Positions 34,601-48,100 of a stretch of DNA of 64,000 nucleotides are shown piece after piece (the stretch's first letter is position 1; each line of letters opens with the position of its first letter). The translations under genes were made by a program, and so were the position numbers. The DNA is from a virus (lineage: Duplodnaviria > Caudoviricetes). The DNA lies in the IMG/VR virus record IMGVR_UViG_3300037307_000169, positions 856 through 64,855 of that record; one strand, written 5' to 3'. Below the pieces are notes generated by a model. It was given only the letters and a program-made list of their open reading frames with translations, was not told the DNA's origin and ran no database searches.

Positions 34601-37600
34601 GTCTGCTTGAACGGGGCGTTCGGCATTAAATCTAATTTGGGTTGCTCCATTGTTCTAGTGTCGATGTACTGTTTTTGCAGCTCCAGAAAATCTTTGTATT
34701 CCTGGCTTGCCATTACCGTTTTGCGAATTTCGAAATATTTGGGTTCAGGCACGTAGGCAGCTAACGATTTAATATAATTTTTCTGTTCGTGATATTTTAT
34801 GATTTCAGGATTGTACCAATCAAAACTCACTTGGTATCCCGCGATGTTTCTGATCTTCTCCGCATTTTGGTAAATTTCTTGGTTTTTTAAACTTTGCATT
34901 TGAATGGCGCGCGTCAGCTCCTCATTGCGCGCGACAATTTCTTTTGTTATATAAAAATATCCTTTGGGCACTAGTTTTGCCGCTTCGGCGATCGATATAT
35001 TTTTTTCAGCGGCGATGCGTTTGATTTCTTTGCGGCGCGCATTGAAAGCCTTTTGATGCCAGTCACTTTGGATTTCTTCAATAAAAAGGATTCGTTCACC
35101 GTCAGCGGTTTCGCGATGATTAAAACGCACATGCGCCAAAACATTTTTTTTTCTATTCCAATGCGTGCTTACAAATTCCTTATCCTGCACGGGTGATTTT
35201 AGAATCAGCAAAAGTTCGGTATAATAAAGTCCTCCTGGCAGCTGATGTTCACCGTAGATGGTTGCATCGCCCTTACTTATATCTGCGGCAATCGTTTGGG
35301 AAATAAAATTTTCTGCATCTTCGAGCGAATCAAAATCCCCTCTTTTTTCCAGCGCAGAAATTTCGACGTGGAACGCCTCGTCATCCTTGTCGGAGTATAC
35401 GTCAGCGAAGATGCCGTTCGCATAATACGTCCTGTGGTAAATTTTTCGGCCGTGCATGACCTCCCAAACGCCGCCAGATGTCTCCAGCTCGATTTCTTCG
35501 TCCAGTTCTTGTTCTTCGCTTTTGTATTCCTCTATGGCTGCTTCAAGGGCTCTTTGAGCTTCTTCTGACCCCCACATATCCCAGGCTTCATCGACTCCGG
35601 CATCGATTTCTTTTTCGGGGATCATATCAAATACCTGCTCGTTGGTTATATTGAACTCTTCGAGCAAATCGTCAGGATGATCAGGCTTTTCGTCTAATTC
35701 CACCGTTTTTTCATCATAGGTATAGGTATAAACTTCGACTTCGTCTCCGTCCTCATCTGTCGACGTTTTAACTTCTTCCGTTTCTTTTATTTTTTCAAAT
35801 AAAATGTATTTTTCTTCTCTAATTCTTTCATACCAGTATTCTCCTTCACCAAAATAATAATCGCGCGCTTGCTCTCGATAGTTTTCTTCAAACTCCTCCA
35901 AAAATTCTTGCCGGTTAAACGGCATTTGTGTTTGATAGCTTCGTATTTCCTTCTCTACAATTATTACGGGTTGCGCAGCATTGATCACGTCCGTTGCAGA
36001 AACCTTAGTGCCGACCGGTTGCGCATCGAGCCATTCGAGCAGCTCCGACCACTCGAGCTCTTCAGCCTTGAACTTGCCTGATTTTGCCCAGCCCTTGATC
36101 AGGCTGGCGAAGTTGGCGGCTGTGCTGGTTTTTGGCAGCTGGCCGGGGCGCGCCAGAAATTCTTCCATGGAGGAATACCACACCGGACGCCGAACCGAGG
36201 CGAGAAGATCTCGCTTGCCGATGCTTTTCGCTCCTTTTGCGAGTTGTTTCACTCCGCGGGCAGCTATATCGCGCAACTCAGCGCCGGTGTAGTAACTTCC
36301 ATGGTTGCACGAGCTCTGGCAGTCAAAGCACGCATCCAGGCTGGCGCCGGCGGCGCAGCACAGGCTCGATTCATCTTTTGCCAACTGGCCGGACAGGACG
36401 CTGAAAATCTTTTCCTGCTGCGCCTTGGTGTAATTTTCCTTGATGTATCTTTCGACCTTCGTGTAATCGGTCCCTTCGCCGACCTGGTCCGTCCCGCGCT
36501 CGAGCTGCCGCAGGATCCGCCATTCGCCGTCCACCTTGCGGATGGCGATCGGGTCGCGGAAATTGAGCGCCACATCCGAAACATCCTTGCCCTCGACCTC
36601 GCTCCACATGCCCGGCCGCATCACCGCGTGCATCCAGGTCTGCAGCACCTCGGGCGTGTGGAGCGCGTATTCGGCGATCTCCTTGGCCGTGCTGACGACC
36701 CCCCGCGGCAGGATGCGCACGTCGGGGTATTTCTTGGAGGCTTTCTTCAGCTGGTCCCAGCTCCAGCCGTACTTGCGCCACACGCGGCCGTTGATCACCC
36801 TGGCCTCGCATCCCATCTCTTCGCGGATGAATTTGGCGGCCGGCTCCAGCTTTCCCGCATTGATCATGTCGATGACCTGCGTCGCCTTCATCGCCGACCC
36901 CGGCAGGTTGTCCTGTTGGCTCACTTCGATCCAGTACGGGTCGATGCTCGGCTGGACGATCACCTCGCGAGCCCCCGGGACTTTGTTTTTGATCAGCCAT
37001 TGCATGATCTTGATCGTGTCGTCCTGCTTGGTAATGATCTTGAGCGGCAGCCCGCGCATGTGCGCATGCCGGACAATGTCCTCCATTTGGAACCGCTCGG
37101 ACCAGGTGAGATCGCCCATGCCGTTTACCCGCAGCCCGCCGGTGGCAGTCAACTTGCGGACCTCGGCGTCGGAGATCTGCAGTAGCTCAGCGGTGTACAT
37201 GGCCGACCGGTAGAAATTGATCGCGCGCCCGTTCTCCATGGTGCCGATCATGTAGCAGCCGTCGATATAGCACCCGTGGCAGCCAACGATCAGCATCGGG
37301 CACATGGTGTTGATGTTGAGCGCCGCATAAGTTTTGTGAGAGCGTTTCAGCGGGCGCGCGAGGGCGAAGCCCTTGTCGGGGCGCTGCTTGGTCCCGAGGG
37401 CCTTGATCGAGGTGCCCAGCTCAGAGCGGCCGGCCGGCACGTTGCCTTCGTAGGCCATCTCGATTGATTTGACGATGGCCTTGCGGAAGTGCTCGCGCGC
37501 CGTCTCGTGCATGTTGTCGAGGTAGGTCTGCGTCAGCGTGCGCAGGCCGCCGATCAGCCGCGGGCGCTGGCCGCCGATCGGATAAAACTGCGAGGCGGTC

Positions 37601-40600
37601 GGCCCGGGGATGTTGGTGACGGTCGTCATCTCCATCGGATGCGCGAGCAGGTTGCCGTCGGCATCGAGCATCGGGACGTGGGTGCGCGCCTGGATGGCGC
37701 GGATCCGGTCGCGCAGGTAGGGCCGCTCCTGCAGGCGGTTGTTGATTGCGATCGCGTTGCCTTGCGGCTGGCCGGTGCGGGTGAGCCTGAGCTCCTCGTC
37801 GATCGCGGTCAGCTCCTCCAGGTCGCGCGAAATGGCGAGATCCTGGACGTTGAAAAGCCCACGCTCCATTGCCCGGCGGATGTCCGACCGGCGCACGCTG
37901 AACTTGGCCTCCATGTGCTTGGTGGTAATCTGCGCGGATTTCAGCATCTGCGAGGTTTCTTCCAAGTCCTGAGACGGCTCGGCGATCCACCGGTCCTTGG
38001 CTGCACCGGAGATTGTGCTCTGAGACGTGCCGCGCACGACCACGTCTAACCACATTAAATCTTGACCGGTCAGCGCGGTCACTCTTAAAAAAAACGACCG
38101 GGTCCGCTCGGTTTCGTTGGCGTCGGTCACGTTAATGAATGCCACGACCGCGTTGGTATACTCGGCCGCCTTTATGATTTCGGTCGCCGCCTGGGGGCCG
38201 CTCGACGGCTCGATGCGCAAAAATCCCACCGCTTGATTCTGCGCGTTCGCAAACAGCACGCCGGTCTTGTACATCAAGTCATTGTTTTTCAGATATTCGA
38301 CAAGGTCTGCCGGACCGTTCATTTTTTGGGTTTTGGCCAATACGGGTTTGACCAGATAGCGCTCTTTAACGGGCAGCAGGGTTTTGCGGACGGTCGGCCG
38401 GATCGGATACGTCACACCCGTCATGTAGTTGCCGACCGGGTTGACGGTGCCCCAGGAGGTACGCGCTATGATCAGCGCCTGGTACTGCAGCCCGGCTTGC
38501 TCGGCCAGGATGAACCCGCGCTCGGCGACGTTGACATCGGCGCCGCTGGGCAACGGATGCCCGGAGGGATGATTGTGAACGAAGTAGACTTTAAACGCCC
38601 CGGGGATCCGGGCCGCGCGTCCGATCATCTCGATTGTGTGGATATTGGCTGCGCCCTTGGTGCCCTTGGTATGCCGGTGGATTTCGAGGATGGTGCCGTC
38701 TTCCCCGGTCACCACCATGAAGGCATGCTCCTGCGCGCTTTTGCGGATGGCGGCGATGGCGCTTGCGACGTCATCGGCATCGCGCGCGATGTTGCCGGCC
38801 GCGGCGATGTAGCCCGTTGTCTGCACGCGGATCCCCTGCAGGGCGGTGAGCTCGGTTTTAACTTCGGGCAGGGGCTCCGCCCCTTCGATCGTCGCGTAGG
38901 CGGGCAGATCGGTGAACTGGATCTCTTGTTGCTTGGCTTTTTTCTTGGAAGGCTCAGAAGACTTTTTGACGCTGAATGCAGCCGGTGGGGCGAGGTAGGT
39001 GTCGGCCTCGTCGATTAACCCGTCGGAGCGTGTTTCTTTGCTAGGAAGCTCGCCGCGCTCTGCACGTAGTCGCTCATCTGCTTTGCCTGCAAAGGATTCA
39101 AGCGACGCGAACTTAGCAAGATACTTAGCCTCTCCTTCCGTGAGAGCGGCGAGGTCGCCGGCGATGTCGAAATCTGCGAGAATTTGCCGCGCTTTTTCCG
39201 GGTCAAACTTTTTCTGTAGTTCTGCAAGGGTACCCTCCCGCGGCGCGATTTGGGTGGAATCTTTTTGAGCGGTGAGTGACGTAGATAATACCACCGTGCC
39301 GCCGGCATTGTCAATGAAGTGCCGGAGCTCGGCCATGGTGCCGCCCTGCGTGATCGCATCATCGACCAGGATGTAGTCGCGGTTGGGCGCCACCGCTCCG
39401 ATAAACGCCGGCCGGAAAAGGATGCGCGCCATGGCGTCTTTGCCGGTGCGCTCGCCCTTGGACATATTGACGATATCGGTGGTCAGATCGAGTCCGGTGA
39501 GCTCGGCCAGGCGGAAGGCGTAGGCGAGCGGGATCATGTTGACCCGCCCTTCCTTGTTGGCCGCCTCCCATTCGATCACCGGCACCAGGATAGCCCCGGG
39601 GTAGCGCCGGCCGATCTCTTTGGCCCGGTCGACCTTGACCAGGTCTTTCACCAGCCGCTGCGCCGCGGCGTAGTCGCCGTCGTCTTTCGCGGCGCGATAA
39701 TCCGTGTGCCGCTGCATCATCGGCGTGGTTGTATGGATGACGGCCCGCGGGAAACCATCCGGCCAGGCCAGGACGTTTTTGACCGAGAACCGCCCTTCGT
39801 CGTCGGAGCTGCGGTTGACCCACGCCGCGGTCTTGATCATCTGCTCATCGAGTCGGCCCTCGGAGGCCTCGATCGCCTCGCGCAGCAGCTGCGCCTGGTA
39901 GCCGGAAAGCATCAGCGTTTGCAGGGCGTCGTCGGACAAAGTTTCAGACGCCCCGAGCGCAGCATTGGCCGCCAGGATTTCTTCGCGCAGCCGGCGCATG
40001 GCCGCGACCTGGTCGGCCGTGGCCTTCTTCCCGAATTCCCATGCCTCCTGGGTGGTGGCGAAAACGGGGACGCCCGTCTTGACCGAGAGCTTTGGCGCGC
40101 CGGGTTTATTCAGGCTCTTTTTAAGGGCGCCGACCAGCGCCTTGATTTCTTCCTCAGAAACCGATGTGCCGGCCTTGGCAATGCGGGTATGCGGAGTGTG
40201 GGCCTCGATATTGCGGACGACTGCTTTAATTTCGTCGCGGATAGGAACCCCAAGGACTCGGTTTTCGGTGACGTTTATGTCCCTAACCATGACCTGCCAA
40301 TCTTTCGGCCATTCCATTCCGGCACGGCTGGCCAAAAAGAGTAGCTGCTCCATTTTCATGGTTCCTTCCAAGTCGACATAGACCAGCTTGTCTCCGTATA
40401 AGTCGCCGGATAGAGCAGTTTTAAACCCGGCCTCGTTAAGGGCGACGACCAGGTCTGCCACCTTGGGGTTGAGCGGGGCATCCTTCCGCACCTGGTCGGC
40501 AACGCCCTTCGGCAGCCGCTTGAGGTGCTCTTCATCCGGCCGTTTCTTCATGGACGCCAGCAGCTGCGGCTTGTCTTTCGAGGGCGCCAGGTTGAACCGG

Positions 40601-41499
40601 CTCTTGATCTGCCAGGGGTAGAACGCCACCCAGCTGATGCCGCCCTCCACATCGTTTTCATACTGGATGCCGTCATAGCCCTGGTCGATCAGGTCTTCTT
40701 TCCAGGCCGTCGCGATGTCGTGGGCGAGCTCCTGCTGGACCGGTCCCGCGTCGTCGTACCGGTCGCCGATGTAAGTGTAGACATCCTCGTAGACCTCCCG
40801 CCGGAATTCGGGGTCTTTGTCGTACCGGTCCCAAAATCCTTCAGTGTCCTCGACCTTGTAACGGGAATTCAGCAACCACGTCGGCGTGTCCTCCACGTAC
40901 TCCTCGAGGGCATAGTGGGTCGTCGGTATCGACCGCATGGCCTGTTGGAGCTCCTTCTCGGTTGTGACCAGCGGCCGCTCGATGGACAGGTAGACCGGAT
41001 AGACCCGGCCGGTTTCCTTGTCATCCTTGCGCCCGTAGATGCCCCGGGCGAACTGATTGGCGACCAGGGGCGTCTCGGCAAAATGCGCGCCGAGGAAGGC
41101 CGTGGGATCGGCGCCGCTGGCGCGCTCGGGCCGGTCCTCGTTGACGTCGGCTGGCTGCGGATCAGTGTCGAACGCATCGAAGTCTACCGGGTAGGTGGTC
41201 CCGTGATAGAGAATCTTGGGCCGGCCCTGTGCGTCCACCGCCTTACTTTTGCCGAACCAGCGGTTGAACGCGCTCGCCCCGGTGCCCTGGTAGTCCTGCT
41301 CGAGCTTGCGCGTGATTTGGGCCTCGATGTCGGCGAGGTCGTCCTCGACCTGCAGGCGGAACTCCTTGACCGCCTCGACCGCGGCTTTCTGCGCGGAGAG
41401 GCCCTCTTCGTCGCGGAGATCCTCCACCATGCCGTTGATGATCGCCTTCTCATGCTTGCCCAGCTTGTGCCGTTCCAGGCATTTTTTCAGGGTGCCCAT
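28627..41499 (-). CDS. Giant polyvalent ejection/internal virion protein (ART-like, PRTase, JAB, radical-SAM-like, duplicated EIQSDW modules, helical C-terminus)
   Basis: 4290-aa uninterrupted ORF in the late operon. Motifs: WFGKSK.VD...YHGT and GYDGI..QIKS (ART-PolyVal-like); ILVDDAITQGGT (PRT); VHNHPSG..PS..D (JAB); CPMLIVGCHGCY; EIQSDWHQK twice. Confidence 0.85.
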   Translation of the reverse strand: MGTLKKCLERHKLGKHEKAIINGMVEDLRDEEGLSAQKAAVEAVKEFRLQVEDDLADIEAQITRKLEQDYQGTGASAFNRWFGKSKAVDAQGRPKILYHGTTYPVDFDAFDTDPQPADVNEDRPERASGADPTAFLGAHFAETPLVANQFARGIYGRKDDKETGRVYPVYLSIERPLVTTEKELQQAMRSIPTTHYALEEYVEDTPTWLLNSRYKVEDTEGFWDRYDKDPEFRREVYEDVYTYIGDRYDDAGPVQQELAHDIATAWKEDLIDQGYDGIQYENDVEGGISWVAFYPWQIKSRFNLAPSKDKPQLLASMKKRPDEEHLKRLPKGVADQVRKDAPLNPKVADLVVALNEAGFKTALSGDLYGDKLVYVDLEGTMKMEQLLFLASRAGMEWPKDWQVMVRDINVTENRVLGVPIRDEIKAVVRNIEAHTPHTRIAKAGTSVSEEEIKALVGALKKSLNKPGAPKLSVKTGVPVFATTQEAWEFGKKATADQVAAMRRLREEILAANAALGASETLSDDALQTLMLSGYQAQLLREAIEASEGRLDEQMIKTAAWVNRSSDDEGRFSVKNVLAWPDGFPRAVIHTTTPMMQRHTDYRAAKDDGDYAAAQRLVKDLVKVDRAKEIGRRYPGAILVPVIEWEAANKEGRVNMIPLAYAFRLAELTGLDLTTDIVNMSKGERTGKDAMARILFRPAFIGAVAPNRDYILVDDAITQGGTMAELRHFIDNAGGTVVLSTSLTAQKDSTQIAPREGTLAELQKKFDPEKARQILADFDIAGDLAALTEGEAKYLAKFASLESFAGKADERLRAERGELPSKETRSDGLIDEADTYLAPPAAFSVKKSSEPSKKKAKQQEIQFTDLPAYATIEGAEPLPEVKTELTALQGIRVQTTGYIAAAGNIARDADDVASAIAAIRKSAQEHAFMVVTGEDGTILEIHRHTKGTKGAANIHTIEMIGRAARIPGAFKVYFVHNHPSGHPLPSGADVNVAERGFILAEQAGLQYQALIIARTSWGTVNPVGNYMTGVTYPIRPTVRKTLLPVKERYLVKPVLAKTQKMNGPADLVEYLKNNDLMYKTGVLFANAQNQAVGFLRIEPSSGPQAATEIIKAAEYTNAVVAFINVTDANETERTRSFFLRVTALTGQDLMWLDVVVRGTSQSTISGAAKDRWIAEPSQDLEETSQMLKSAQITTKHMEAKFSVRRSDIRRAMERGLFNVQDLAISRDLEELTAIDEELRLTRTGQPQGNAIAINNRLQERPYLRDRIRAIQARTHVPMLDADGNLLAHPMEMTTVTNIPGPTASQFYPIGGQRPRLIGGLRTLTQTYLDNMHETAREHFRKAIVKSIEMAYEGNVPAGRSELGTSIKALGTKQRPDKGFALARPLKRSHKTYAALNINTMCPMLIVGCHGCYIDGCYMIGTMENGRAINFYRSAMYTAELLQISDAEVRKLTATGGLRVNGMGDLTWSERFQMEDIVRHAHMRGLPLKIITKQDDTIKIMQWLIKNKVPGAREVIVQPSIDPYWIEVSQQDNLPGSAMKATQVIDMINAGKLEPAAKFIREEMGCEARVINGRVWRKYGWSWDQLKKASKKYPDVRILPRGVVSTAKEIAEYALHTPEVLQTWMHAVMRPGMWSEVEGKDVSDVALNFRDPIAIRKVDGEWRILRQLERGTDQVGEGTDYTKVERYIKENYTKAQQEKIFSVLSGQLAKDESSLCCAAGASLDACFDCQSSCNHGSYYTGAELRDIAARGVKQLAKGAKSIGKRDLLASVRRPVWYSSMEEFLARPGQLPKTSTAANFASLIKGWAKSGKFKAEELEWSELLEWLDAQPVGTKVSATDVINAAQPVIIVEKEIRSYQTQMPFNRQEFLEEFEENYREQARDYYFGEGEYWYERIREEKYILFEKIKETEEVKTSTDEDGDEVEVYTYTYDEKTVELDEKPDHPDDLLEEFNITNEQVFDMIPEKEIDAGVDEAWDMWGSEEAQRALEAAIEEYKSEEQELDEEIELETSGGVWEVMHGRKIYHRTYYANGIFADVYSDKDDEAFHVEISALEKRGDFDSLEDAENFISQTIAADISKGDATIYGEHQLPGGLYYTELLLILKSPVQDKEFVSTHWNRKKNVLAHVRFNHRETADGERILFIEEIQSDWHQKAFNARRKEIKRIAAEKNISIAEAAKLVPKGYFYITKEIVARNEELTRAIQMQSLKNQEIYQNAEKIRNIAGYQVSFDWYNPEIIKYHEQKNYIKSLAAYVPEPKYFEIRKTVMASQEYKDFLELQKQYIDTRTMEQPKLDLMPNAPFKQTWPLLVLKRMVRYAAENRFDKIAWTTGEMQVQRYEGALRRRVDEIRWTKTADEIHIEGFWKNKKIVHTTETKISVNDAIGKTMGEKIIESSDQSGVFKNEDIVISDTGMAGFYDRILPAEANKFFGSETWGKARVGEININAYGLQPVMVHSLDINDTMRQKAMGGMPLFSVRRVSPFFSQLMDAVTDPKRGLPVRATAGQMAASLANMQKQGRFKQEEFAWALEEFFDAYSKDDKVTRDEIVAYVKAHTVPVTELIYGWAGDVRDVDYDIEILENFPYRWGVKWRIDPESFVGEKQAYTPHPMIPGAFYWLIMHERTNHIDPANNGFYLEVRTSVQRVDQPAKWVGPFKTEDEVTAWTNEHYVGDPDRAETDGSPRYDQYGMAGERGANYREIVLKYSPSEHVAVQRVTTRNAMHSMLKNVGMRTSEADQMVSVVTRVDSVGDFPATDAKLRKELGDDYEKFMELRASYWRLGEAMKTGFYGTHFSPERDVLCWIRFDERVDDDGKKVLFIYEIQSDWHQKGQRFGYRPAGADEVEYQIIKNAAGSYDVIYLSADNKVIGRDGGYDSRMIAEDAAKERRTLRENPPDIPFKQTWPLVALKRMAIYAAENNFDRVAWASGLQQYEQWGSERFVWRKIDYRGMTPGEVVPANKALALAQSGVPLSLREDDRFISLDLKDVSWHANHIGSQSPTYDAQQIVVGKPSDDRKRVLAPAFAVEGTEQHSGAIFEQFAPDQIEEVINKIDGRHVSDKTDLAGIVSIIMERKRQEYKHKFPEYVERITTTLWERMQAKPENGEYLPRLEGMRKFYDQRLVTLAKDFFGRKIWGGAEVRPINVRVAQDFDIAAELGAEPDFPELDLASDYAPVFGFDISEEIKAAALTRGLPLFSVKRLDPVSRVYLDAFREAVPSSTTTTDEDIEADIYDGLTDEEKKRLKSSHGLPVPTWLQLQGKNLRERWHEMSRHRPFLDPTQHATVADILRTHQANPENSTRRAMQMLQGIVAGLKPKQYEVFSLSLIMDDMVRDIESGLLSEKEALPFGFTQQSAVRYRDYLRTLAQGDAAVNSALERRRRFQVKIKEALVAAELLPKTVLEDDRYWHHQVLQYHALDQLGEKYSGVGLGADDLRLKKKGWQMKRQGSVQDYNTKYVETEYEWLAQALAQLETRSVMDKLRELIDITGSLRSLAKSRNLEAFYAPVLAQLPAGTTYQDIRGTDLDPLAKYGKAVARAIGALGKMADKGELRGAPEYDDIIDGLAEWFQDEKDRKRDLGENYQFEMPSDLMEGGRLFKFMSHLMANDLPGAPWAGSVFKSVRERNNQIRETLKDKFLTPARIIRTDPNYAGYTEWIPAPGKTWYKAWSIPDRLAADIQAKEAVLDQETFEKARQILARGRDVAWIIPADIAKTLDGFDVVHDDHGLSKASARVMAAWKQWTLISPFRVIKYNLNNFSGDLDITFAFRPKIITHYLPAAIRDLYKDIKGKQMPQALRDELDLAYSLEVLGSGWSVQEVSDVAGQLAFKKHMEALTGDEPTWIARTWRSFKSFTQYRENLLRLAAFRFFRDALRDGQTLYAASNKAEIDGIEDIDRKAAKLARELLGDYGNITHAGQWIRRHLLPFYAWMEVNAPRYVRMMRNVRHEGQGAGTAARIVGVVATRAAWKTSKLAMKMMGFFALASLWNATFFPDEEEELGEQQRRQLHLILGRREDGSIVSLRVQGAFSDALSWFGMEDLSKDVMDLWYGKTSITDIAKDSALATPKKIIGALGPQWKMPGELLLERSYYPDPFNPRPIRDRLEYVSRTFSLGEVYNWAAGAVDWAVPSGMPMQRPRRGGTIGGQLINDLMALALYTADPGEMAYFDSVKLVRDYRSETLGLDNPDKSNALYYYKQSLRMGDLKSAEKYLRHYMSFPGDTSRGLEQSIKRAHPLGLLSRKDRQGFLDSLSPDERRRVEIATEWYNRVYQGLAHEETKRRSRQPPGEKPEIDEPAATTLRDVFNQLK

Positions 41500-41699: not shown

Positions 41700-42308
41700 T
41701 TAGAGATCGAGTGTCACTGTCAGCCTGTTGCCGCCCGCATCCACCGCGGCGGTGATTAGGTCTTTGGAATCCTCCAGGTCGCGGATCTTGATGAGCGAGG
41801 TGCCGGCCCCGGAGAGTTGGCCGGCGAGCGCCGCGCTGATCACCTGCATGAGCTGCGCGGCCGTGATTGTGCTGCCGATCAGCACCTCCGACCAAACGGC
41901 ATCGGCGACTTCAGCGGCGCTCGGGGCCTCGCCGCCCGAGGTCGAAAAAGCGATCGCCTGGACCGGCTGTTGATAGTTGACCCGGATCACATAGTCGCCG
42001 GTTGTGTTGATGAACGGATCGCCGCCTCCGCTCACCAAGATAACGCCGTCGGTGACGGCTAACGTGTGATCGGCTTCCTGGGGTTTGATCCGCCAACCGT
42101 TGATCAAGTAGGCATAAACCGGAATCTTGGTGCCGGCGCCCGGATCGATGTCATCGCCGCCGACGGCCAAAAAAGCCGGCGGGTATTTCGCGTTGTCGGA
42201 CAGCGCAATCCAGTCCACCCACCGGCTCCACACGTCCCGGACCGACATCGTGGTCGTACCGGCCGTCAGGGTTATGACCTTGCTGCTGCCGTCGAAGGAG
42301 TATCCCAT
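41700..42308 (-). CDS. Virion structural/tail-associated protein
   Basis: 202 aa, beta-rich, in the tail module. Confidence 0.6.
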   Translation of the reverse strand: MGYSFDGSSKVITLTAGTTTMSVRDVWSRWVDWIALSDNAKYPPAFLAVGGDDIDPGAGTKIPVYAYLINGWRIKPQEADHTLAVTDGVILVSGGGDPFINTTGDYVIRVNYQQPVQAIAFSTSGGEAPSAAEVADAVWSEVLIGSTITAAQLMQVISAALAGQLSGAGTSLIKIRDLEDSKDLITAAVDAGGNRLTVTLDL

Positions 42309-42314
42309 AACCCC

Positions 42315-42644
42315 TCAAACTTTATGGCATGCGCTGCACGGTACCGAGCGATCGGCGTGTTTTTGATGGTACTTGGTTTGCCATAAAGCGATCACCTTTT
42401 TGGTTGACCCCGGGTGGCAGCGCGCGCAGCTATCGAACGCATTGGCTGCGCTGGGCGAGACGACTACCGGCGCGCCCTGATCAATCCAGCAGCGCGGGCA
42501 AAGCGAATTCCACAACGGCGTGAACTCGCCCTCGAAGCAGTGCAGCCGGCCGGCCTCTTCGATGCATGGGACAAACCCGCTCTGCAGCGCCATAACTGAG
42601 GTGGCGCTTGCGGCCAGTAGAAATGCGACGATCGTTTTCTTCAA
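42315..42644 (-). CDS. Secreted small multiheme c-type cytochrome (2 x CxxCH, cytochrome c3/c7-like)
   Basis: AAGGAGG RBS then TTG; Sec signal MKKTIVAFLLAASATSVMA; CARCH (aa 73-77) and CSACH (aa 103-107); HQKH distal-ligand pair; degenerate CPRCW. Confidence 0.85.
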   Translation of the reverse strand: MKKTIVAFLLAASATSVMALQSGFVPCIEEAGRLHCFEGEFTPLWNSLCPRCWIDQGAPVVVSPSAANAFDSCARCHPGSTKKVIALWQTKYHQKHADRSVPCSACHKV

Positions 42645-42654
42645 GCGGTCCTCC

Positions 42655-44277
42655 TTACGCCAGATAGGCGCGATCGGTCTCGGCCGTCAGCGTGATCGAA
42701 ATCGATTTGCTTTGGTTGATGGTCCCGGTGGCCACAACCGGCTTCGCGCTGCCGGGGTTGCCGGCCACGACCGTGACCTCCGCGTCGGTGCCGGGGGTCC
42801 GGCCGCCCTGGTTGTTATTCGAATAGTCGAAGGTAAACGCGATCTGTGCGGCGCTGATCGTCCCGGCGATGTCCACGGCGTCCTTGTCGTCCACCGTCAC
42901 GGCCCCGGACTCGCCATAATCGTTGCCGGCGCCGGGCAGTGTGGTGAAAAACGCCCGGTAATAACCGCCCACCAGGTTGGCGCTGAAATTGAGGTTGCCC
43001 GCTGAAGCGTAGGGGTACTCGCGCGAGGTTCCCGTGTTGTCCCAAAAAACGATGCTGTTAAGATCGGCCGCCCGGATCCCCTGCACCAGCACGCCGGTCC
43101 CGCCGCCGTTGGGGTTGGTCGGCGTGTAGAACCCGCACTTGAGCGAATCGCCGACGAAGTTGAGCAACAGCCCGGCCGTGGCCCCGGTCACGCTCCCGGA
43201 CACCGCGTTGATGTTGGAGTTTTGCCGCAGCAGGTACTGGATCTTGGTGTAGATCTCTTTTAGGGTTGCCGAGACAGGCGTTGCCCGTTGCGCCGTGAAG
43301 GACAGGTTCGACCCGCTGGCGATCGTGCCGGTGACTGTGATGGTGGTGGCCGTGTTGGACACGATCGGGAAGGTGGCGTTTTTATCGGTCCCTTCGTAGA
43401 TGGTGAGGACGCCGCCGGCAAACTCGTTGACGGTCATGGCGCTGCCCGCACTCGTCAGCACCGACGCCCCACCGGGGGCTGAGCCGTCCACGCCGGAGTT
43501 GGTGCCGACGTCGATCACGATGCCGAAACTGCGCGAAGTGGTGGAGTCGATGTCGCGGGTAAACGCCTGCCCGAAGTATTTTGCGTTGATTTGCGTGTAG
43601 GGCGAGTTGGCCGCGACGTTGACGTCGGTGTCCTCGATGTTGAGATCCAGCCCCACCGCGATCGGCAGCGCGACCTTGTAGGCGCCCGTCCCGGTTTCGC
43701 CGACGTCCCCCAAGACCTTTTCATCGTAGAGGTATTGGTATTCCCGGCAAAACATTTTGAAAAAAGCGCGCTCGTCGAAATTGCCGTTGCTCGCATCCCC
43801 GTAGACCTGGATCGCCTCGTTCGGCGCGTCGGTGAAGGTAAAGTTTGCTTTGGACCCTGTGCTGGTGCGCTGGTAATAGAACTGCGCCCCGCTGGGAAAA
43901 CCCGATGCCAGCGCGACCATGCCGACGTACTGGCGGTTCAGCACCCCGGCCACACTGTACTCGCTCCAGCCGGCATCGCGGATCATCTGCCGGGTCGCGT
44001 CATTGCTCGGTTTCCACCCGGTATATTTTCCGCCAGGATCCTGGCCGAAAACGTACTGACCGGACCGGGCGTCGAGGACGTTCATCGGAAAATCGAACGG
44101 CTGATACGTCGTGCCGCTGGACCAAAGGTCAATGAATTTGGCCCAAAGGGCGTTCCCGCTAACGCCGTCTTTGGCGACCAAATTTCCTGCCACGTTCAGC
44201 GTGAACGTCTTTGCGCCCGTATCCATAGTCAGCTCGGTGCCAACATTGAGATCATCGGGATCAGTAATTTTTGCCAA
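42655..44277 (-). CDS. Virion structural protein (tail-associated)
   Basis: 540 aa, Gly/Thr/Ala-rich beta protein in the tail module. Confidence 0.6.
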   Translation of the reverse strand: MAKITDPDDLNVGTELTMDTGAKTFTLNVAGNLVAKDGVSGNALWAKFIDLWSSGTTYQPFDFPMNVLDARSGQYVFGQDPGGKYTGWKPSNDATRQMIRDAGWSEYSVAGVLNRQYVGMVALASGFPSGAQFYYQRTSTGSKANFTFTDAPNEAIQVYGDASNGNFDERAFFKMFCREYQYLYDEKVLGDVGETGTGAYKVALPIAVGLDLNIEDTDVNVAANSPYTQINAKYFGQAFTRDIDSTTSRSFGIVIDVGTNSGVDGSAPGGASVLTSAGSAMTVNEFAGGVLTIYEGTDKNATFPIVSNTATTITVTGTIASGSNLSFTAQRATPVSATLKEIYTKIQYLLRQNSNINAVSGSVTGATAGLLLNFVGDSLKCGFYTPTNPNGGGTGVLVQGIRAADLNSIVFWDNTGTSREYPYASAGNLNFSANLVGGYYRAFFTTLPGAGNDYGESGAVTVDDKDAVDIAGTISAAQIAFTFDYSNNNQGGRTPGTDAEVTVVAGNPGSAKPVVATGTINQSKSISITLTAETDRAYLA

Positions 44278-44290
44278 TTTTTAAACCCTC

Positions 44291-46570
44291 CTAAGCAATA
44301 TAGAATCGGTCAACTACCTGTGAAATCGGCACACTCGCGTCCGCGTTGCTCTTGGTGTAGGCGCGAATATAGAACGGCACATAGCCCGCCTTGAAAACAC
44401 CAATGTCGATCAAATTGCCCGCCTCGCTCGCCGGGTAATCGTAGACGTAGGACGTGCCGGCGATGTCCTGCGAGGACTCGATCACCGTGGTGGTGCCGGC
44501 CGCGTAGATCACCACGTCGCTGCCGGAGACGATCGGCGAAAGGGTCAGGTTGCGGGCGTTGACCACGGTCACGGTGGCGCCGGCCGTGCGGATGCTGGGG
44601 GTGGAGCCACCGCCGGTGATGGAGATCGTCATGCTGCCGGATGCGATGTTAATGTAAATCGCCTCATTGCCAGTGCTGCCGTTGCTTGCCGCGTAGCCGC
44701 TGAACTGGCAGCCGTTGAGCGAGAAATCCGCCGCCGATCCGCCGATCTCGATGGCGTGCCCGGTGCCGCCGGAAATAAAAGTGCCCCGAATGATGTCGGC
44801 CGCGTCCGCCGGGGAGTCCGCCGATACTTTGGTGCTCTTGAAACGGCAGTCCGTCAGCACCGCGCTATTGAGCGTAAAGGTCGGGCAGCTGATAAAGTTG
44901 ACGCTGGTCAACCCGACGGTGCTTCTGAGCGTGACGGTCGCATTGACGACTGTCGTGCCGCTGAAGTCGAGCGTTGCGCCGGCATTGTGACTGCTGTTGA
45001 ATCTCCAGTAGTAGGACGACTCGGAAGTAAACACGCAGTTGGTAAACTTGATTGTGTCGCCGCTCAGCCCGTAGAACTCGATTCCCAGGTGGTTGTTGTC
45101 GACGTGGAAATCAAGGTAGTTTGCTTCGTCGGCCTTGCGCGGGTATTGGAAGGTGCGCAGGTCCACCAGGAAGTGGCTCGCGTCCGCCCCGCCGAACTGG
45201 AAGCGCGACCAGAGCACCGCAGCTGAACCCGTGCGTTGAAAAATCGGGATCCCGCCGGTGCCGTAGTTGGCGGCCCTTTCGATGTCCAAAAACTCAAGCG
45301 GGACGCCCGAGGTGCCGCCGAGGATCTGCGTTTGGTTCAAGAGCCACAGCTGCGAGAAATCCAGCTGCGTCGCCCCGAAGTAGGCCTGCGCCGCCCAATA
45401 GATATCGTTGATCGCATTGTAGGCGAGCGTCCCGCTCGCGGCATAAGTGGTGTCGCTCGTGCCGTTCACTTGAACGGCAAAATTTTGCATATTCCACGGC
45501 GAGGTGGTTTTCGAAAGCTGCCCGCCGATGCACCAGAACTTGTAGTCATTGTCGGCGTCGGCGATGCCGATCAGCACCCCTCCGGTATTTGAAAGTCCTA
45601 CATCCAGGTAGTCCCGCGGAGATGTAAACTGCCACATTCCGAAGATCACCCCGGCCCCGGCCGTCATATCAACGGCGGAAGTGAAGGTAAGCTCCTGTCC
45701 GTAGAGCGTGCTTGTTGAAGATGTCGCGTTGAACCGCACCACACCGTGGAACGGGTTGTACCCAACGTCTGCGGTGTTGGTTGTATAAGCAATGTAGGTA
45801 AGAGTCTTGGCCCCGACCGTCGTTATGTCTAAAGGAGCGGCGGTTTTAAGCGACCCCAGATTGACGCCCGACACGTTGTTGTTGAGAACGCCCAAGAGGG
45901 TCGCCCCTGCGGTTGCGTTTCCGACATAGGGCGATACAGCCGTGTTGTTGGTGTCGTCCTTGATTGAAACTGAAAGCCCTCGCGTGTCATCCGCAGCGGA
46001 CCCTGAAAATACCGTAGGCGTATAGCATGCGCCGGCTGTTTTCTGAAACGTGTAGCCGACCGCAATCGAGTTTGCCCCGGTGTCGCCACCGAAAAGCTGC
46101 ACGATCCCAGGCAGGCAGAAAAGCCCGTAAACCGCATCTCCGCCAACCATATGGATAACAAGCTCGTTGTTTTGCGTGGTGGTAACGGATGCCCCGGTAA
46201 ACGGAAGAGAACTATCGTCGGCGCCTGTCGAAACCGCTTGATCGATTGCATCTGAGCCATTCGTGGTCGAGCCATCCCAATATTGCCCGCGGATGGCGAT
46301 CACAACCCCGATGCAGGTTTCCGAGGTCAATGTGAAGGTGACGGTTTCGCTCGAGCTCGCGGCCCGCTTGGTGTAAATGCCGTTGGCGGCGCCGGTGCTC
46401 AGCACGGTGGTCGCCGCGTACCAGCCGGCGGGCGTGGTGAAGGCGCTGTTGGTATCTTTGTTAAGACAGGCGACCAGCAGATCACCCGCCTGGTGTGCGG
46501 GCATCTGCATGACCATGCTTGCCGTGGCGGCTGTATAAATCGTTACCGCGTAATCAACGATGTAGGCCAT
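44291..46570 (-). CDS. Tail fibre/spike-like protein
   Basis: 759 aa, Thr/Gly/Ala-rich; beta-helix-like repeats (FTNCVFT, LTDCRF, LNGCQFSG) near the C-terminus. Confidence 0.65.
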   Translation of the reverse strand: MAYIVDYAVTIYTAATASMVMQMPAHQAGDLLVACLNKDTNSAFTTPAGWYAATTVLSTGAANGIYTKRAASSSETVTFTLTSETCIGVVIAIRGQYWDGSTTNGSDAIDQAVSTGADDSSLPFTGASVTTTQNNELVIHMVGGDAVYGLFCLPGIVQLFGGDTGANSIAVGYTFQKTAGACYTPTVFSGSAADDTRGLSVSIKDDTNNTAVSPYVGNATAGATLLGVLNNNVSGVNLGSLKTAAPLDITTVGAKTLTYIAYTTNTADVGYNPFHGVVRFNATSSTSTLYGQELTFTSAVDMTAGAGVIFGMWQFTSPRDYLDVGLSNTGGVLIGIADADNDYKFWCIGGQLSKTTSPWNMQNFAVQVNGTSDTTYAASGTLAYNAINDIYWAAQAYFGATQLDFSQLWLLNQTQILGGTSGVPLEFLDIERAANYGTGGIPIFQRTGSAAVLWSRFQFGGADASHFLVDLRTFQYPRKADEANYLDFHVDNNHLGIEFYGLSGDTIKFTNCVFTSESSYYWRFNSSHNAGATLDFSGTTVVNATVTLRSTVGLTSVNFISCPTFTLNSAVLTDCRFKSTKVSADSPADAADIIRGTFISGGTGHAIEIGGSAADFSLNGCQFSGYAASNGSTGNEAIYINIASGSMTISITGGGSTPSIRTAGATVTVVNARNLTLSPIVSGSDVVIYAAGTTTVIESSQDIAGTSYVYDYPASEAGNLIDIGVFKAGYVPFYIRAYTKSNADASVPISQVVDRFYIA

Positions 46571-47231
46571 TTGTCACCTTGTACGAATAGCCGCCATAGT
46601 GGCCAAGTTTGATGTTGCGGTTCAGCCAGATTTTCCCGCCGAAATTGCGCCACCTGATGCAGAAGGAAACGTCCTCCGGGTATTGGTGGTGATTTTTTTT
46701 GATCGGCGAGTAGAAATCGGGGATGAGCCGGTTGGGCCAAATGCTGTAGACTGGCTCGGTGTGGGGCGCCAGTTGCAGAAAGAGCTCCCTGGTCAACAGC
46801 TGAAACCCGGCACCGACCTGCATTATCTCCGTGATCGATTCCGCGGTCGTTTCATCGCATGGTTCGAAACAGAGCTTGCCCGTGATGTTTTTGTACGAGT
46901 ATGCCCCGCAGGCAAAATCGACGCGCATGTCGAGCAGCTTGAGCACGTCCGCCGGCGCGAACTGGATATCGGCGTCGATGCACATCAGGTGCGTGTAGCC
47001 GAGGTCCAAAAAACTCGTTGCGATGTGGTTGCGCGTCACCGGCAGGTTGCTCTCGTTCGACGGGGTGAGGATCTCACTTGCAATCCCATGGCCGGCGAGC
47101 AGCTTGCCGGCCGAGAAGATCGAGTTCGCCGTGTAGCTGTGTATCCAGCCGCCATAGCACGGCGTCGCAAACAGGATGCCGACTTTCGCGGCGGCGGGTT
47201 TGGCTACGGTCAGGTCACGATTTTCAGCCAT
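46554..47231 (-). CDS. GT-A fold glycosyltransferase (family 2-like)
   Basis: ILFATPCYGG, RNHIA..FL, THLMCIDADI (DxD), GAGF.L, EDVSFC and LGHYG motifs. Confidence 0.85.
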   Translation of the reverse strand: MAENRDLTVAKPAAAKVGILFATPCYGGWIHSYTANSIFSAGKLLAGHGIASEILTPSNESNLPVTRNHIATSFLDLGYTHLMCIDADIQFAPADVLKLLDMRVDFACGAYSYKNITGKLCFEPCDETTAESITEIMQVGAGFQLLTRELFLQLAPHTEPVYSIWPNRLIPDFYSPIKKNHHQYPEDVSFCIRWRNFGGKIWLNRNIKLGHYGGYSYKVTNGLHR

Positions 47232-47240
47232 GCCAAAGCC

Positions 47241-47699
47241 TCACACGTACGGAAGGCCCATTCGGCGGGCCACCATCAGCCGAAAAGTTTCCAGGTTGAA
47301 CGCCGTGCCTGGGCAGGTTTTGTTGGCAAATTCCCGGTGCCCGTAGATGTCCCGCGGCAGCAGGCCGAATGCATGGCACAGCCAGGTGCAGAGCTCGACC
47401 CCGCGCAGGAGCTGGCTGGTGTGCGGCGGAGCCGCGTCGAAGTTGCCGACGAAGCACACCCCCAGGCTGTCCTGGTTGTGGTCCCGCGTGTGCGCGCCGG
47501 GCTCATCCGGCATGCGGCCCATCAGCACCTCGTAGCTGCCGGCGGCGTAGCCCTGGTCCGGCAGGAGCTCGATGCCGAAGTGATAGCCGATGTCGTTCCA
47601 GGCGCACTCGCCCATGTGGTAGCGCCGGATGGCGTTCCAGCTGACGGTGAGCCCGTCCTTGGTGGCCGAATGGTGCAGGATGATCTTGGTGGGCGTCAT
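47241..47699 (-). CDS. N-acetylmuramoyl-L-alanine amidase (endolysin, Amidase_2)
   Basis: IILHHSA, WNDIGYHF, GAHT, SLGVCFVGNF and GHREFANKTCPG motifs. Confidence 0.93.
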   Translation of the reverse strand: MTPTKIILHHSATKDGLTVSWNAIRRYHMGECAWNDIGYHFGIELLPDQGYAAGSYEVLMGRMPDEPGAHTRDHNQDSLGVCFVGNFDAAPPHTSQLLRGVELCTWLCHAFGLLPRDIYGHREFANKTCPGTAFNLETFRLMVARRMGLPYV

Positions 47700-48100
47700 G
47701 CGATCGATCTCTTCACCCGAACGATGTTGCCGTAGCCGTCGCGGACGATCTCATAGGTGATCTCCCGGTCATCCCGGGGATGGAGCACGGTGATATTTTG
47801 CGTGGCCGGGGGGGCGATGCGTTCCTCGGCCAGGCTGGAGAGGGTCGCCGCGACCTGCAGCTGGATGGTGGCGAGCCGCTCGAGCACGTCGGAGATCGTC
47901 TCGACCCCGGGCGAACGCTGCCGGTCGATCATGCGCTGGGTGGCGACGTGCAGGTCCACCAGGTGCTTGATGGCCTGGCCCACCTGGTCGAGCACGTCCT
48001 CGATCTTGACGCCGGCCGCGGCCTTGCGAGGGGTCCGCGGTTTGCCCTCGGACACGATGACGGCCCGGGAGAGCTCCTCCTGGGTCAGGATTCTAGGCAT
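47696..48100 (-). CDS. Hypothetical protein
   Basis: 134 aa; ATGA coupling to the endolysin gene. Confidence 0.6.
   Translation of the reverse strand: MPRILTQEELSRAVIVSEGKPRTPRKAAAGVKIEDVLDQVGQAIKHLVDLHVATQRMIDRQRSPGVETISDVLERLATIQLQVAATLSSLAEERIAPPATQNITVLHPRDDREITYEIVRDGYGNIVRVKRSIA

What the first reader, a model, noticed from the sequence alone, without database searches (positions are those of the whole stretch)
42315..42644. Phage-encoded, exported di-heme c-type cytochrome embedded in the tail gene module
Seen: a 109-aa ORF with a strong AAGGAGG RBS, a Sec signal peptide, two CxxCH motifs (CARCH, CSACH), an HQKH pair before the last motif, a degenerate CPRCW and an extra Cys pair. It sits between two structural genes with only 10-nt and 6-nt gaps, so it is very likely on the late transcript. 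Known: CxxCH plus export is the substrate of periplasmic heme attachment, and HxxH...CxxCH is the cytochrome c3/c7 pattern of sulfate- and metal-reducing Desulfobacterota. Inference: the phage makes a periplasmic redox carrier late in infection. It could reroute host respiration, mask a cytochrome receptor (exclusion), or poise redox for lysis or assembly under anoxia. Periplasmic maturation argues against it being a normal virion part, despite its location.
Basis: partly seen in the sequence, partly recalled or inferred. Interest (0 to 1): 0.88.

Follow-up and report, generated by a model that had tools for sequence, protein, structure and literature searches.

The report
Phage-only exported two-heme mini-cytochrome
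A 65-kb phage, probably of sulfate-reducing or syntrophic Desulfobacterota, carries a small exported protein with every sequence hallmark of a two-heme c-type cytochrome; it is a mobile add-on gene found so far only in a few unrelated phages, and its job in the host periplasm is untested.

Summary
ORF 42315-42644 (-) encodes a 109-aa protein with a Sec-type signal peptide, two CxxCH motifs, an HxxH pair, a degenerate CPRCW and two extra Cys. It has a strong RBS and 10-nt and 6-nt gaps to its neighbours. It is the only one of 533 open segments in the window with two or more CxxCH.

The family is tiny: eight distinct sequences, none with a cellular orthologue. All six full-length members aligned keep C73, C76, H77, H93, H96, C103, C106 and H107. 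That is the residue count needed for two bis-His c-type hemes. The HxxH-x6-CxxCH spacing matches cytochrome c7 (3h4n). Family scores are consistent but below threshold (Pfam 18.9 bits against a cut-off of 25; hhalign 85%). Apo structure models were uninformative.

The gene is an insert. 19 related viral loci and MW202577 have the two flanking virion genes directly adjacent and no cytochrome. Copies 63-69% identical sit in two otherwise unrelated phages (GC 47% and 37%), in other gene modules. Third codon positions are saturated.

A related prophage lies in a Desulfatibacillum chromosome contig.

Best reading: a host-matured periplasmic electron carrier. Its physiological role is unknown. This scan had already flagged the same family on two other phage genomes.

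The parts
42315..42644 (-). CDS of the 109-aa exported di-heme-type protein (TTG start, TGA stop)
   Evidence: Homologues at 63-79% identity and at 34-44% identity. Codon positions 1 and 2 are conserved while position 3 is saturated.
42650..42656 (-). Shine-Dalgarno AAGGAGG, 5 nt before the TTG, overlapping the stop codon of the upstream gene
42588..42644 (-). Sec-type signal peptide, residues 1-19, predicted cleavage after V-M-A
   Evidence: Read from the sequence. The n/h/c regions and A/V-x-A before invariant L20 are kept in all six aligned members.
42474..42587 (-). N-terminal conserved region (residues 20-57) of unknown fold: predicted beta-hairpin, C27, invariant C36 and the degenerate CPRCW (42486-42500)
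   Evidence: Invariant G23, P26, E29, G32, C36, P43 and P50. Strands at 27-30 and 33-36 in the AF2 model. CPxCW and C27 are lost in distant members. No family or fold match.
42414..42428 (-). Heme-attachment motif 1, C73-A-R-C76-H77
   Evidence: Invariant C, C and H. P0005 carries a CX4CH variant at this site.
42357..42368 (-). H93-Q-K-H96, the predicted distal (sixth) heme ligands
   Evidence: Both His are invariant. The spacing HxxH-x6-CxxCH is the same as in cytochrome c7 3h4n residues 17-33.
42324..42338 (-). Heme-attachment motif 2, C103-S-A-C106-H107
   Evidence: Invariant. Aligns to CxxCH of c7, c3, NrfH and OcwA.
42655..44277 (-). Upstream neighbour, a 540-aa virion protein like the Syn5 gp53 'structural protein' (context, not part of the cytochrome)
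   Evidence: tblastn against Syn5 gp53 gives 33% identity and E 1e-23, and against MW202577 'structural protein' 62%.
41700..42308 (-). Downstream neighbour, a 202-aa conserved partner of the 540-aa gene (context). In relatives it directly follows the 540-aa gene.
   Evidence: 57% identical to the gene after the structural protein in MW202577. 56 IMG/VR loci carry it, 19 of them with direct adjacency.

Best explanation
The gene encodes a small pre-protein that is exported by Sec. Its signal peptide is cut after residue 19. The host's cytochrome c maturation system (Ccm or Ccs) then attaches two hemes covalently, at C73xxC76H77 and C103xxC106H107.

H93 and H96 supply the sixth ligands, so both hemes would be low-spin bis-His, as in class III (c3/c7) cytochromes. 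By analogy with c7, H93 would pair with the C-terminal heme and H96 with the first heme. This would make a closely packed di-heme electron-transfer unit. It is preceded by a roughly 40-residue conserved region of unknown fold that may dock it to a partner.

The gene is a mobile accessory gene. In this phage it was dropped, with its own RBS, into the 8-nt spacer between two conserved virion genes, so here it is read with the late operon. In other phages it sits in other modules.

The most likely role is a periplasmic electron carrier that plugs into the host's periplasmic cytochrome network during infection.

Shown: the gene, its conservation, its motif set, its mobility, the insertion and the host clade of a close relative.

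Inferred: export, heme attachment, ligand pairing, co-transcription and the physiological role.
For: - All eight predicted heme-binding residues are invariant in six full-length members that are only 36-70% identical to the window protein. They make up 8 of the 18 invariant columns.
- One distant member has CX4CH in place of the first CxxCH. From memory of Desulfovibrio c3, that is a known c3 heme-site variant.
- Signal peptides are conserved.
- Five of six members give weak Cytochrom_c3_2 and Cytochrome_C7 hits, and no other family recurs.
- There is an ungapped match of H-x-x-H-x6-C-x-x-C-H to cytochrome c7 3h4n residues 17-33.
- hhalign against 12 c7 domains from Desulfobacterota MAGs gives probability 85%, E 6e-6.
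- All ten nearest Atlas clusters are small multiheme cytochromes, scoring 0.90-0.93.
- In 401 Desulfobacterota genomes the only weak hits fall in eight-CxxCH cytochromes. Two of these carry a CxxCH...SHKxH...CxxCH unit in the same order.
- The gene is an insert. Homologues of the 540-aa and 202-aa genes are adjacent, with 5-116 nt between aligned ends, in 19 IMG/VR loci and in MW202577, with no cytochrome in any of 56 loci. The junction in L016 is TAG-GGGGAGAC-GTG.
- Copies 63-69% identical occur in two otherwise unrelated phages, in other modules.
- Gene GC tracks each genome: 58.8, 45.3 and 32.4%. Third codon positions are 29-45% identical against 69-83% at positions 1 and 2. This points to long residence under purifying selection.
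- A related prophage (MCP 82%, portal 66%, TerL 73%) lies in a 138-kb Desulfatibacillum MAG contig that also carries chromosomal genes.
- That MAG and four other MAGs with related terminases encode c7-type cytochromes and PF01578 cytochrome c assembly proteins.
- From established knowledge, System I (Ccm) attaches heme to nearly any exported CxxCH.
Against: - No family model reaches its curated cut-off. Cytochrom_c3_2 scores 18.9 bits against 25, and Cytochrome_C7 scores 11.9 against 24.8.
- PDB sequence hits are individually non-significant.
- Because the motif residues drive all the weak matches, these lines of evidence are not fully independent.
- One close homologue (P0003, 96 aa) lacks H96 and the second CxxCH.
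- No cellular orthologue was found. The usual AMG logic, in which a phage copy boosts a host pathway, therefore has no named pathway to lean on.
- The hosts of the GC 47% and GC 37% phages are unknown, so a common redox partner is not evident.
- There are no expression or biochemical data.
Confidence: 0.6

Rival explanations
1. It is a true exported di-heme protein, but its job is not to carry electrons for host metabolism. It would instead act for the phage at the envelope. Candidate roles are blocking superinfection by binding or mimicking a periplasmic or outer-membrane cytochrome or pilus receptor, timing or assisting lysis through redox state, or disabling a host envelope defence. The conserved N-terminal region would be the targeting part.
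For: - The family is phage-only, with no cellular orthologue. That is atypical for metabolic AMGs, which resemble host genes. Examples are the NapC/NirT cytochrome of amoC-phages (bioRxiv 10.64898/2026.06.18.733297) and the Methanoperedens virus multiheme cytochromes (bioRxiv 10.1101/2023.08.02.551345).
- It has a conserved non-cytochrome N-terminal region.
- It occurs in phages with GC from 37 to 60%, so probably in different hosts.
- In L072 it is followed by a one-TMD holin-like ORF.
- In the window it lies in the same late operon as the amidase at 47241-47699.
Against: - No consistent neighbour is shared by the three contexts.
- The gene has no promoter of its own for expression from a prophage. 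Classic exclusion morons usually have one.
- Bis-His hemes point to electron transfer rather than binding.
- Nothing tested here distinguishes this reading from the carrier role.
Confidence: 0.25
2. It is not a heme protein. It would be an exported Cys/His-rich protein stabilised by disulfides or by a metal such as Zn, Cu or Fe, and the CxxCH motifs would be incidental.
For: - Six further Cys/His positions exist (C27, C36, C49, C52, H35).
- All Pfam scores are below threshold. TNFR_c6, a Cys-rich domain, gives a weak hit at E 0.089.
Against: - The His directly after both CxxC pairs and both His of HxxH are invariant. By contrast the CPxCW pair and C27 are lost in distant members.
- The number of His (four) equals the number needed for two bis-His hemes.
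- The spacing equals that of c7.
- No Zn-finger or disulfide family was hit repeatedly.
- All Atlas neighbours are cytochromes.
- From established knowledge, an exported CxxCH is a Ccm substrate by default.
Confidence: 0.1
3. It is a virion (tail or fibre) component or an assembly factor, as its position between structural genes suggests.
For: It lies between a Syn5 gp53-like structural gene and that gene's conserved partner, with 10-nt and 6-nt gaps.
Against: - A cleavable Sec signal would send it out of the cytoplasm, where tailed-phage virions assemble.
- It is absent at this junction in 20 related phages.
- Its homologues sit in a replication module and at an operon boundary in other phages.
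Confidence: 0.03

Closest known systems
Cytochrome c7 (triheme, PpcA family of Geobacter and Desulfuromonas; PDB 3h4n; Pfam PF14522)
   Same: Small, Sec-exported and periplasmic, with all hemes bis-His. The signature H-x-x-H-x6-C-x-x-C-H has identical spacing: an ungapped alignment of residues 92-108 to 3h4n residues 17-33. hhalign to c7 domains gives 85%.
   Different: It has two hemes, not three. The other CxxCH lies before the HxxH rather than after it. It has an extra conserved N-terminal region of about 40 residues. The Pfam score is 11.9 bits against a cut-off of 24.8. It is known only from phages.
Tetraheme cytochrome c3 / class III cytochromes (Pfam PF02085, PF14537; for example the dimeric c3 1gyo)
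   Same: Low-complexity fold built around bis-His hemes. This is the best Pfam hit, Cytochrom_c3_2, with E 2e-3 here and 1.8e-4 for a relative. Residues 69-108 align to 1gyo residues 48-85. One member has a CX4CH variant, as at c3 heme sites (the c3 fact is from memory).
   Different: It has half the hemes, scores below the gathering cut-off, and has a different N-terminal part.
Di-heme units inside eight-CxxCH cytochromes of Desulfobacterota (unnamed ORFs at L085 and L086)
   Same: Same order and similar spacing, CxxCH - about 20 residues - SHKxH - 5 residues - CxxCH. These are the only cellular hits in 401 genomes, at 21-27 bits. They are a possible source of the C-terminal module.
   Different: The cellular proteins are 250-775 aa with eight hemes. 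Only residues 70-109 match, and no cellular protein matches the N-terminal region.
Reported virus-encoded c-type cytochromes: the NapC/NirT multiheme cytochrome of amoC-phages (bioRxiv 10.64898/2026.06.18.733297), the 5- and 6-heme cytochromes of Methanoperedens viruses (bioRxiv 10.1101/2023.08.02.551345), and soxD among phage sulfur AMGs (PMC8190135)
   Same: A virus carries a c-type cytochrome gene that needs the host's maturation machinery.
   Different: Those are host-like genes that group with host homologues. This family has no cellular orthologue in the searches run, is much smaller, and moves between unrelated phages.

Membership tests
c-type cytochrome (covalent heme c protein) | CxxCH heme-attachment motif(s), with the His conserved | tested here: met
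   Two motifs are present. C73, C76, H77, C103, C106 and H107 are invariant in six full-length members.
c-type cytochrome (covalent heme c protein) | Export to the compartment where heme is attached (signal peptide) | tested here: met
   An n/h/c signal peptide with A/V-x-A is conserved in all members. This is read by eye, because no SignalP run was possible.
c-type cytochrome (covalent heme c protein) | Covalently bound heme on the mature protein | not testable with these tools
   This needs expression with Ccm, a heme stain, mass spectrometry and UV-vis spectra.
Class III multiheme cytochromes (c3/c7; PF14537, PF02085, PF14522) | Score over the curated Pfam gathering cut-off | tested here: not met
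   PF14537 scores 18.9 bits against 25, and PF14522 scores 11.9 against 24.8. The best among relatives is E 1.8e-4, still below the cut-off.
Class III multiheme cytochromes (c3/c7; PF14537, PF02085, PF14522) | Two His axial ligands per heme (one extra conserved His per CxxCH) | tested here: met
   H93 and H96 are invariant, giving four His for two hemes. The HxxH-x6-CxxCH spacing equals that of c7 3h4n.
Class III multiheme cytochromes (c3/c7; PF14537, PF02085, PF14522) | Profile-level or fold-level similarity to c3/c7 domains | tested here: inconclusive
   hhalign gives 85%, E 6e-6, over 41 columns. Atlas neighbours score 0.90-0.93. The AF2 apo models had pLDDT of only 62-66, and their fold searches gave no match above Z 2.4.
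Cytochrome c7 proper | Three hemes in about 70 residues | tested here: not met
   There are only two CxxCH. The third Cys pair is CPRCW, has no His, and is not conserved.
Host-derived auxiliary metabolic gene (AMG) | A recognisable cellular homologue or pathway from which the phage copy derives | tested here: not met
   No full-length cellular relative was found in any of these: the 1.84-billion-protein representative search (five hits, all small or viral-type), the GTDB pattern scan, five MAGs with related prophages, and 401 Desulfobacterota genomes. The correct wording is 'not found in those searched'.
Phage moron / mobile accessory gene | Present or absent between conserved flanking genes, and found in different contexts in other phages | tested here: met
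   It is absent at the same junction in 19 IMG/VR loci and in MW202577. Other contexts are seen in L001 and L072.
Phage moron / mobile accessory gene | Own promoter and terminator | tested here: not met
   No flanking promoter-like or terminator-like site was found, and the intergenic gaps are only 10 and 6 nt.

The most novel reading that the evidence does not exclude
The mini-cytochrome belongs to a class of phage-specific periplasmic redox effectors. In this reading a di-heme module borrowed from host multiheme cytochromes was fused to a phage-evolved targeting hairpin. The phage would use it to tap, short-circuit or sense the host's periplasmic electron-transfer chain. Possible uses are draining the c3 pool to sustain energy supply late in infection, or reading redox state to time lysis or exclude rival phages. 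Its spread across phages of different hosts would mean that it acts on a widely shared envelope feature.
Probability: 0.2. Interest if true: 0.8.

Novelty: new variant of a known kind. Interest (0 to 1): 0.6.

Why it matters
Virus-borne c-type cytochromes have only recently been reported, and those described are host-like multiheme genes. This one is a minimal two-heme protein of about 90 mature residues. It has no cellular counterpart in the searches run, is kept under purifying selection, and has been passed between unrelated phages.

If it is matured and redox-active, phages of anaerobes place their own electron carrier in the host periplasm. That bears on how viruses steer sulfate-reducing and syntrophic metabolism. 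It would also offer a very small, easily expressed di-heme scaffold for biochemistry.

It is directly testable with standard E. coli Ccm co-expression.

Tried and rejected
- **Structure route.** AF2 gave poor models from a 6-sequence alignment (full length, pLDDT 66) and from an 8-sequence alignment (mature part, pLDDT 62). Foldseek against the PDB and VIA-align wide gave no match above E 1 or Z 2.4. This is uninformative: it shows neither a cytochrome fold nor a Zn or disulfide fold.
- **Family libraries.** PHROGs gave no family for the protein. tblastn against 50,697 GenBank phage records gave no match.
- **Contig context.** The contexts of P0003-P0006, and the longer contigs holding P0002 (87 kb) and the window's own protein (66 kb), could not be read.
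- **Metagenome scans.** The scan with P0008 found nothing.
- **Hosts of the other two phages.** Relatives of an L072 gene fall in bins of inconsistent taxonomy (Opitutales, Methanomassiliicoccales), which look like mis-binned phage contigs. The L001 helicase found nothing.
- **Tail module in the MAGs.** The 202-aa gene was not found in the five MAGs with related terminases, so those prophages do not share the tail block.
- **Other readings considered and rejected.** A prepilin-type signal (G|F) was considered for the conserved LQSGF, but the hydrophobic segment precedes the motif rather than following it. A spanin or lipoprotein reading fails because there is no lipobox. P0007 (400 aa, repeats, E 3.8e-4) was judged a spurious Cys-motif match.
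- **Not run.** Complex prediction was not used because no protein-protein binding claim is made.

Full report
**1. What is there**

The window is almost all of a 64,855-bp IMG/VR virus record that CheckV rates as complete.

On the minus strand, 42644-42315 encodes a 109-aa protein with a TTG start. AAGGAGG lies 5 nt upstream and overlaps the TAA of the preceding gene. The next gene starts 6 nt after the stop.

The protein has these features:
- A typical Sec signal peptide: MKK, a hydrophobic core, then VMA|LQ.
- CARCH at residues 73-77.
- HQKH at 93-96.
- CSACH at 103-107.
- A degenerate CPRCW at 49-53.
- Two further Cys, at 27 and 36.

Two CxxCH in one open frame is not a chance feature here. 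This is the only one of 533 six-frame open segments of 60 aa or more in the window with two or more motifs. None of 2,252 such segments in 397 kb of related phage DNA has two.

**2. The family**

An exhaustive phmmer search of 1.84 billion representative proteins found only four others. Word-seeded searches of 5.8 billion clusters added three, and a cluster look-up added one near-identical copy.

No member carries a name or a precomputed Pfam domain. Those with long contigs are on viral contigs.

In the alignment of the six full-length members (36-70% identity to the window protein), 18 columns are invariant. Eight of them are C73, C76, H77, H93, H96, C103, C106 and H107. That is exactly the set needed to bind two hemes covalently and give each a second His ligand.

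By contrast, the CPxCW pair and C27 are lost in the two most distant members. One of these has CX4CH in place of the first CxxCH. From memory, that is a variant known from Desulfovibrio c3.

One caveat remains. P0003 (96 aa, 79% identical, on a 2.4-kb contig) ends early and lacks H96 and motif 2. It may be a broken copy or an assembly error. Its DNA could not be fetched.

**3. Similarity to known cytochromes**

| Test | Result |
|---|---|
| Pfam Cytochrom_c3_2 | E 2e-3, 18.9 bits, cut-off 25 |
| Pfam Cytochrome_C7 | 11.9 bits, cut-off 24.8 |
| Members scanned one by one | 5 of 6 hit both families, 3 of 6 hit Cytochrom_CIII; no unrelated family recurs |
| PDB sequence search | weak hits nearly all multiheme cytochromes (OcwA 6i5b, c552 5ze8, GSU1996 3ov0, NrfA, STC, NrfH, dimeric c3 1gyo, c7 3h4n) |
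| hhalign vs 12 c7 domains from Desulfobacterota MAGs | probability 85%, E 6e-6, 41 columns |
| ESM Atlas | ten nearest clusters all small NrfB-, c7- or c3-type cytochromes, 0.90-0.93 |

The c7 match is an ungapped alignment of YHQKHADRSVPCSACHK to residues 17-33 of 3h4n. The H-x-x-H-x6-C-x-x-C-H spacing is therefore identical. The hhalign match pairs the two CxxCH of the family with two consecutive heme sites.

These lines are not independent, because the motif residues drive all of them. They are consistent, though, and no rival family appears.

Apo AF2 models were poor (pLDDT 66 and 62). Fold searches returned nothing. So the structural test is inconclusive, not negative.

**4. It is an insert**

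The upstream 540-aa gene resembles the Syn5 gp53 'structural protein' (33%) and a 'structural protein' of MW202577 (62%).

In MW202577 the next gene, 6 nt downstream, is the homologue (57%) of the window's 202-aa gene. There is no cytochrome between them.

Of 56 IMG/VR loci that carry the 202-aa gene, none has a cytochrome homologue. In 19 of them the 540-aa homologue ends 5-116 nt before the 202-aa gene. These include the closest relative, L016 (83% and 67% identity). Its junction reads TAG-GGGGAGAC-GTG.

The window has the cytochrome gene, with its own RBS, in that spacer. No promoter-like or terminator-like site flanks it. Here it is presumably read through with the late operon: terminase, portal and capsid genes, the amidase, fibre-like genes, and the polyvalent ejection proteins.

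**5. It moves between phages**

A 69% identical copy lies in IMGVR_UViG_3300043267_000097 (L001, GC 47%). There it sits among helicase, DUF4326 and primase genes.

A 63-67% identical copy lies in IMGVR_UViG_3300037851_000757 (L072, GC 37%). It sits at the end of an operon, followed by a one-TMD holin-like ORF, and is next to divergently read replication genes.

Over the 20 kb around its copy, L072 shares only one other detectable protein with the window.

Each copy has the GC content of its own genome: 58.8, 45.3 and 32.4%. Third codon positions are 29-45% identical, against 69-83% at positions 1 and 2. The copies are old, ameliorated and under purifying selection.

**6. Host**

TerL relatives in GTDB genomes are mostly in Desulfobacterota MAGs: Desulfatibacillum 73%, then Syntrophus, Syntrophorhabdus, Desulfobacteraceae and Syntrophales.

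In the Desulfatibacillum MAG the TerL, portal (66%) and capsid (82%) genes lie together at about 17-27 kb of a 138-kb contig. At 95-110 kb the same contig carries trpC, trpD, a molybdopterin oxidoreductase and two-component genes. That makes it an integrated prophage in a bacterial chromosome.

The five MAGs searched (Desulfatibacillum, Syntrophus, Syntrophorhabdus, Desulfobacteraceae and a 'Deltaproteobacteria' bin) encode c7-type cytochromes and cytochrome c assembly proteins. They have no homologue of this family.

In 401 Desulfobacterota genomes the only hits, at 21-27 bits, cover residues 70-109 inside eight-heme cytochromes. Two of these show CxxCH...SHKxH...CxxCH in the same order. This hints that the C-terminal module came from such proteins.

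**7. Mechanism and rivals**

The best reading has these steps: Sec export, signal cleavage, attachment of two hemes by host Ccm or Ccs, bis-His ligation by H93 and H96, and electron transfer in the periplasm.

- Molecular identity: about 0.8.
- The claim that it is an inserted mobile accessory gene: about 0.95.
- The physiological role as a carrier feeding or draining the host's periplasmic cytochrome pool: only about 0.4.
- The whole statement: 0.6.

The main rival keeps the heme protein but gives it a phage-specific envelope role, such as exclusion, lysis timing or counter-defence. It is favoured by the lack of any cellular orthologue and by the conserved N-terminal region.

A non-heme Cys/His protein is unlikely, and a virion part is very unlikely.

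**8. Novelty**

The literature held here reports virus-borne cytochromes only as host-like genes:
- Methanoperedens viruses. [quoted passage not shown]
- A NapC/NirT gene in amoC-phages.
- soxD among the phage sulfur AMGs of PMC8190135.

No paper on this small family was found.

This scan had already noted the same family on the L001-type phage (e1-3291880) and the L072-type phage (e1-5351702). An earlier follow-up reached the same 'phage-only two-heme mini-cytochrome' reading, with c7 3h4n as the closest known. My result was reached independently before I read those notes, and it adds a third genome. It also adds the clean insertion junction, the amelioration and selection evidence, and a Desulfobacterota host link.

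I class it as a new variant of a known kind, with interest 0.6.

Noticed in passing
window 28627-41499 (-) and 48085-52098 (-): Two giant late proteins, 4290 aa and 1337 aa, both carry the ART-PolyVal ADP-ribosyltransferase domain (PF18760). The larger one also has a RadC-like JAB domain. They look like polyvalent ejection proteins.
   Followed up: partly
window 41700-46570 (-); L016-L071; L003: The block of a 759-aa fibre-like gene, a 540-aa Syn5 gp53-like gene and a 202-aa gene recurs in dozens of IMG/VR contigs of very different sizes, from 4 to 334 kb. Only the C-terminal roughly 85 residues of the 759-aa protein are conserved in most of them. None of the three has a PHROG or Pfam family.
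   Followed up: partly
G001:C3 about 16.9-27.5 kb (L009) and 95-110 kb (L093): A close relative of this phage is integrated in a 138-kb chromosome contig of a Desulfatibacillum MAG (capsid 82%, portal 66%, TerL 73%). It has neither the cytochrome nor the 202-aa tail gene.
   Followed up: partly
P0003 (96 aa, on a 2,427-bp contig): This homologue is 79% identical but ends ...KYHIKLSE. It lacks H96 and the second CxxCH, so it may be a frameshifted or decaying copy.
   Followed up: no
L072:10334-10633 (+): In the GC 37% phage the cytochrome gene is followed, after 9 nt, by a 99-aa ORF with one transmembrane segment and a highly charged tail, which looks holin-like. The next ORF (84 aa) is Cys-rich.
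   Followed up: no
window 46554-47231 (-) and 47241-48100 (-): An Amidase_2 endolysin (PF01510, E 4e-15) sits inside the late structural operon. It is flanked by a 134-aa ORF with no family hit and a 225-aa phrog_1574 protein of unknown function.
   Followed up: no
L085 (G186:C221) and L086 (G210:C298): Desulfobacterota ORFs of 363-372 aa with eight CxxCH motifs contain a di-heme unit whose order and spacing mirror the phage protein's C-terminal 40 residues: CxxCH, about 20 residues, SHKxH, 5 residues, CxxCH.
   Followed up: partly
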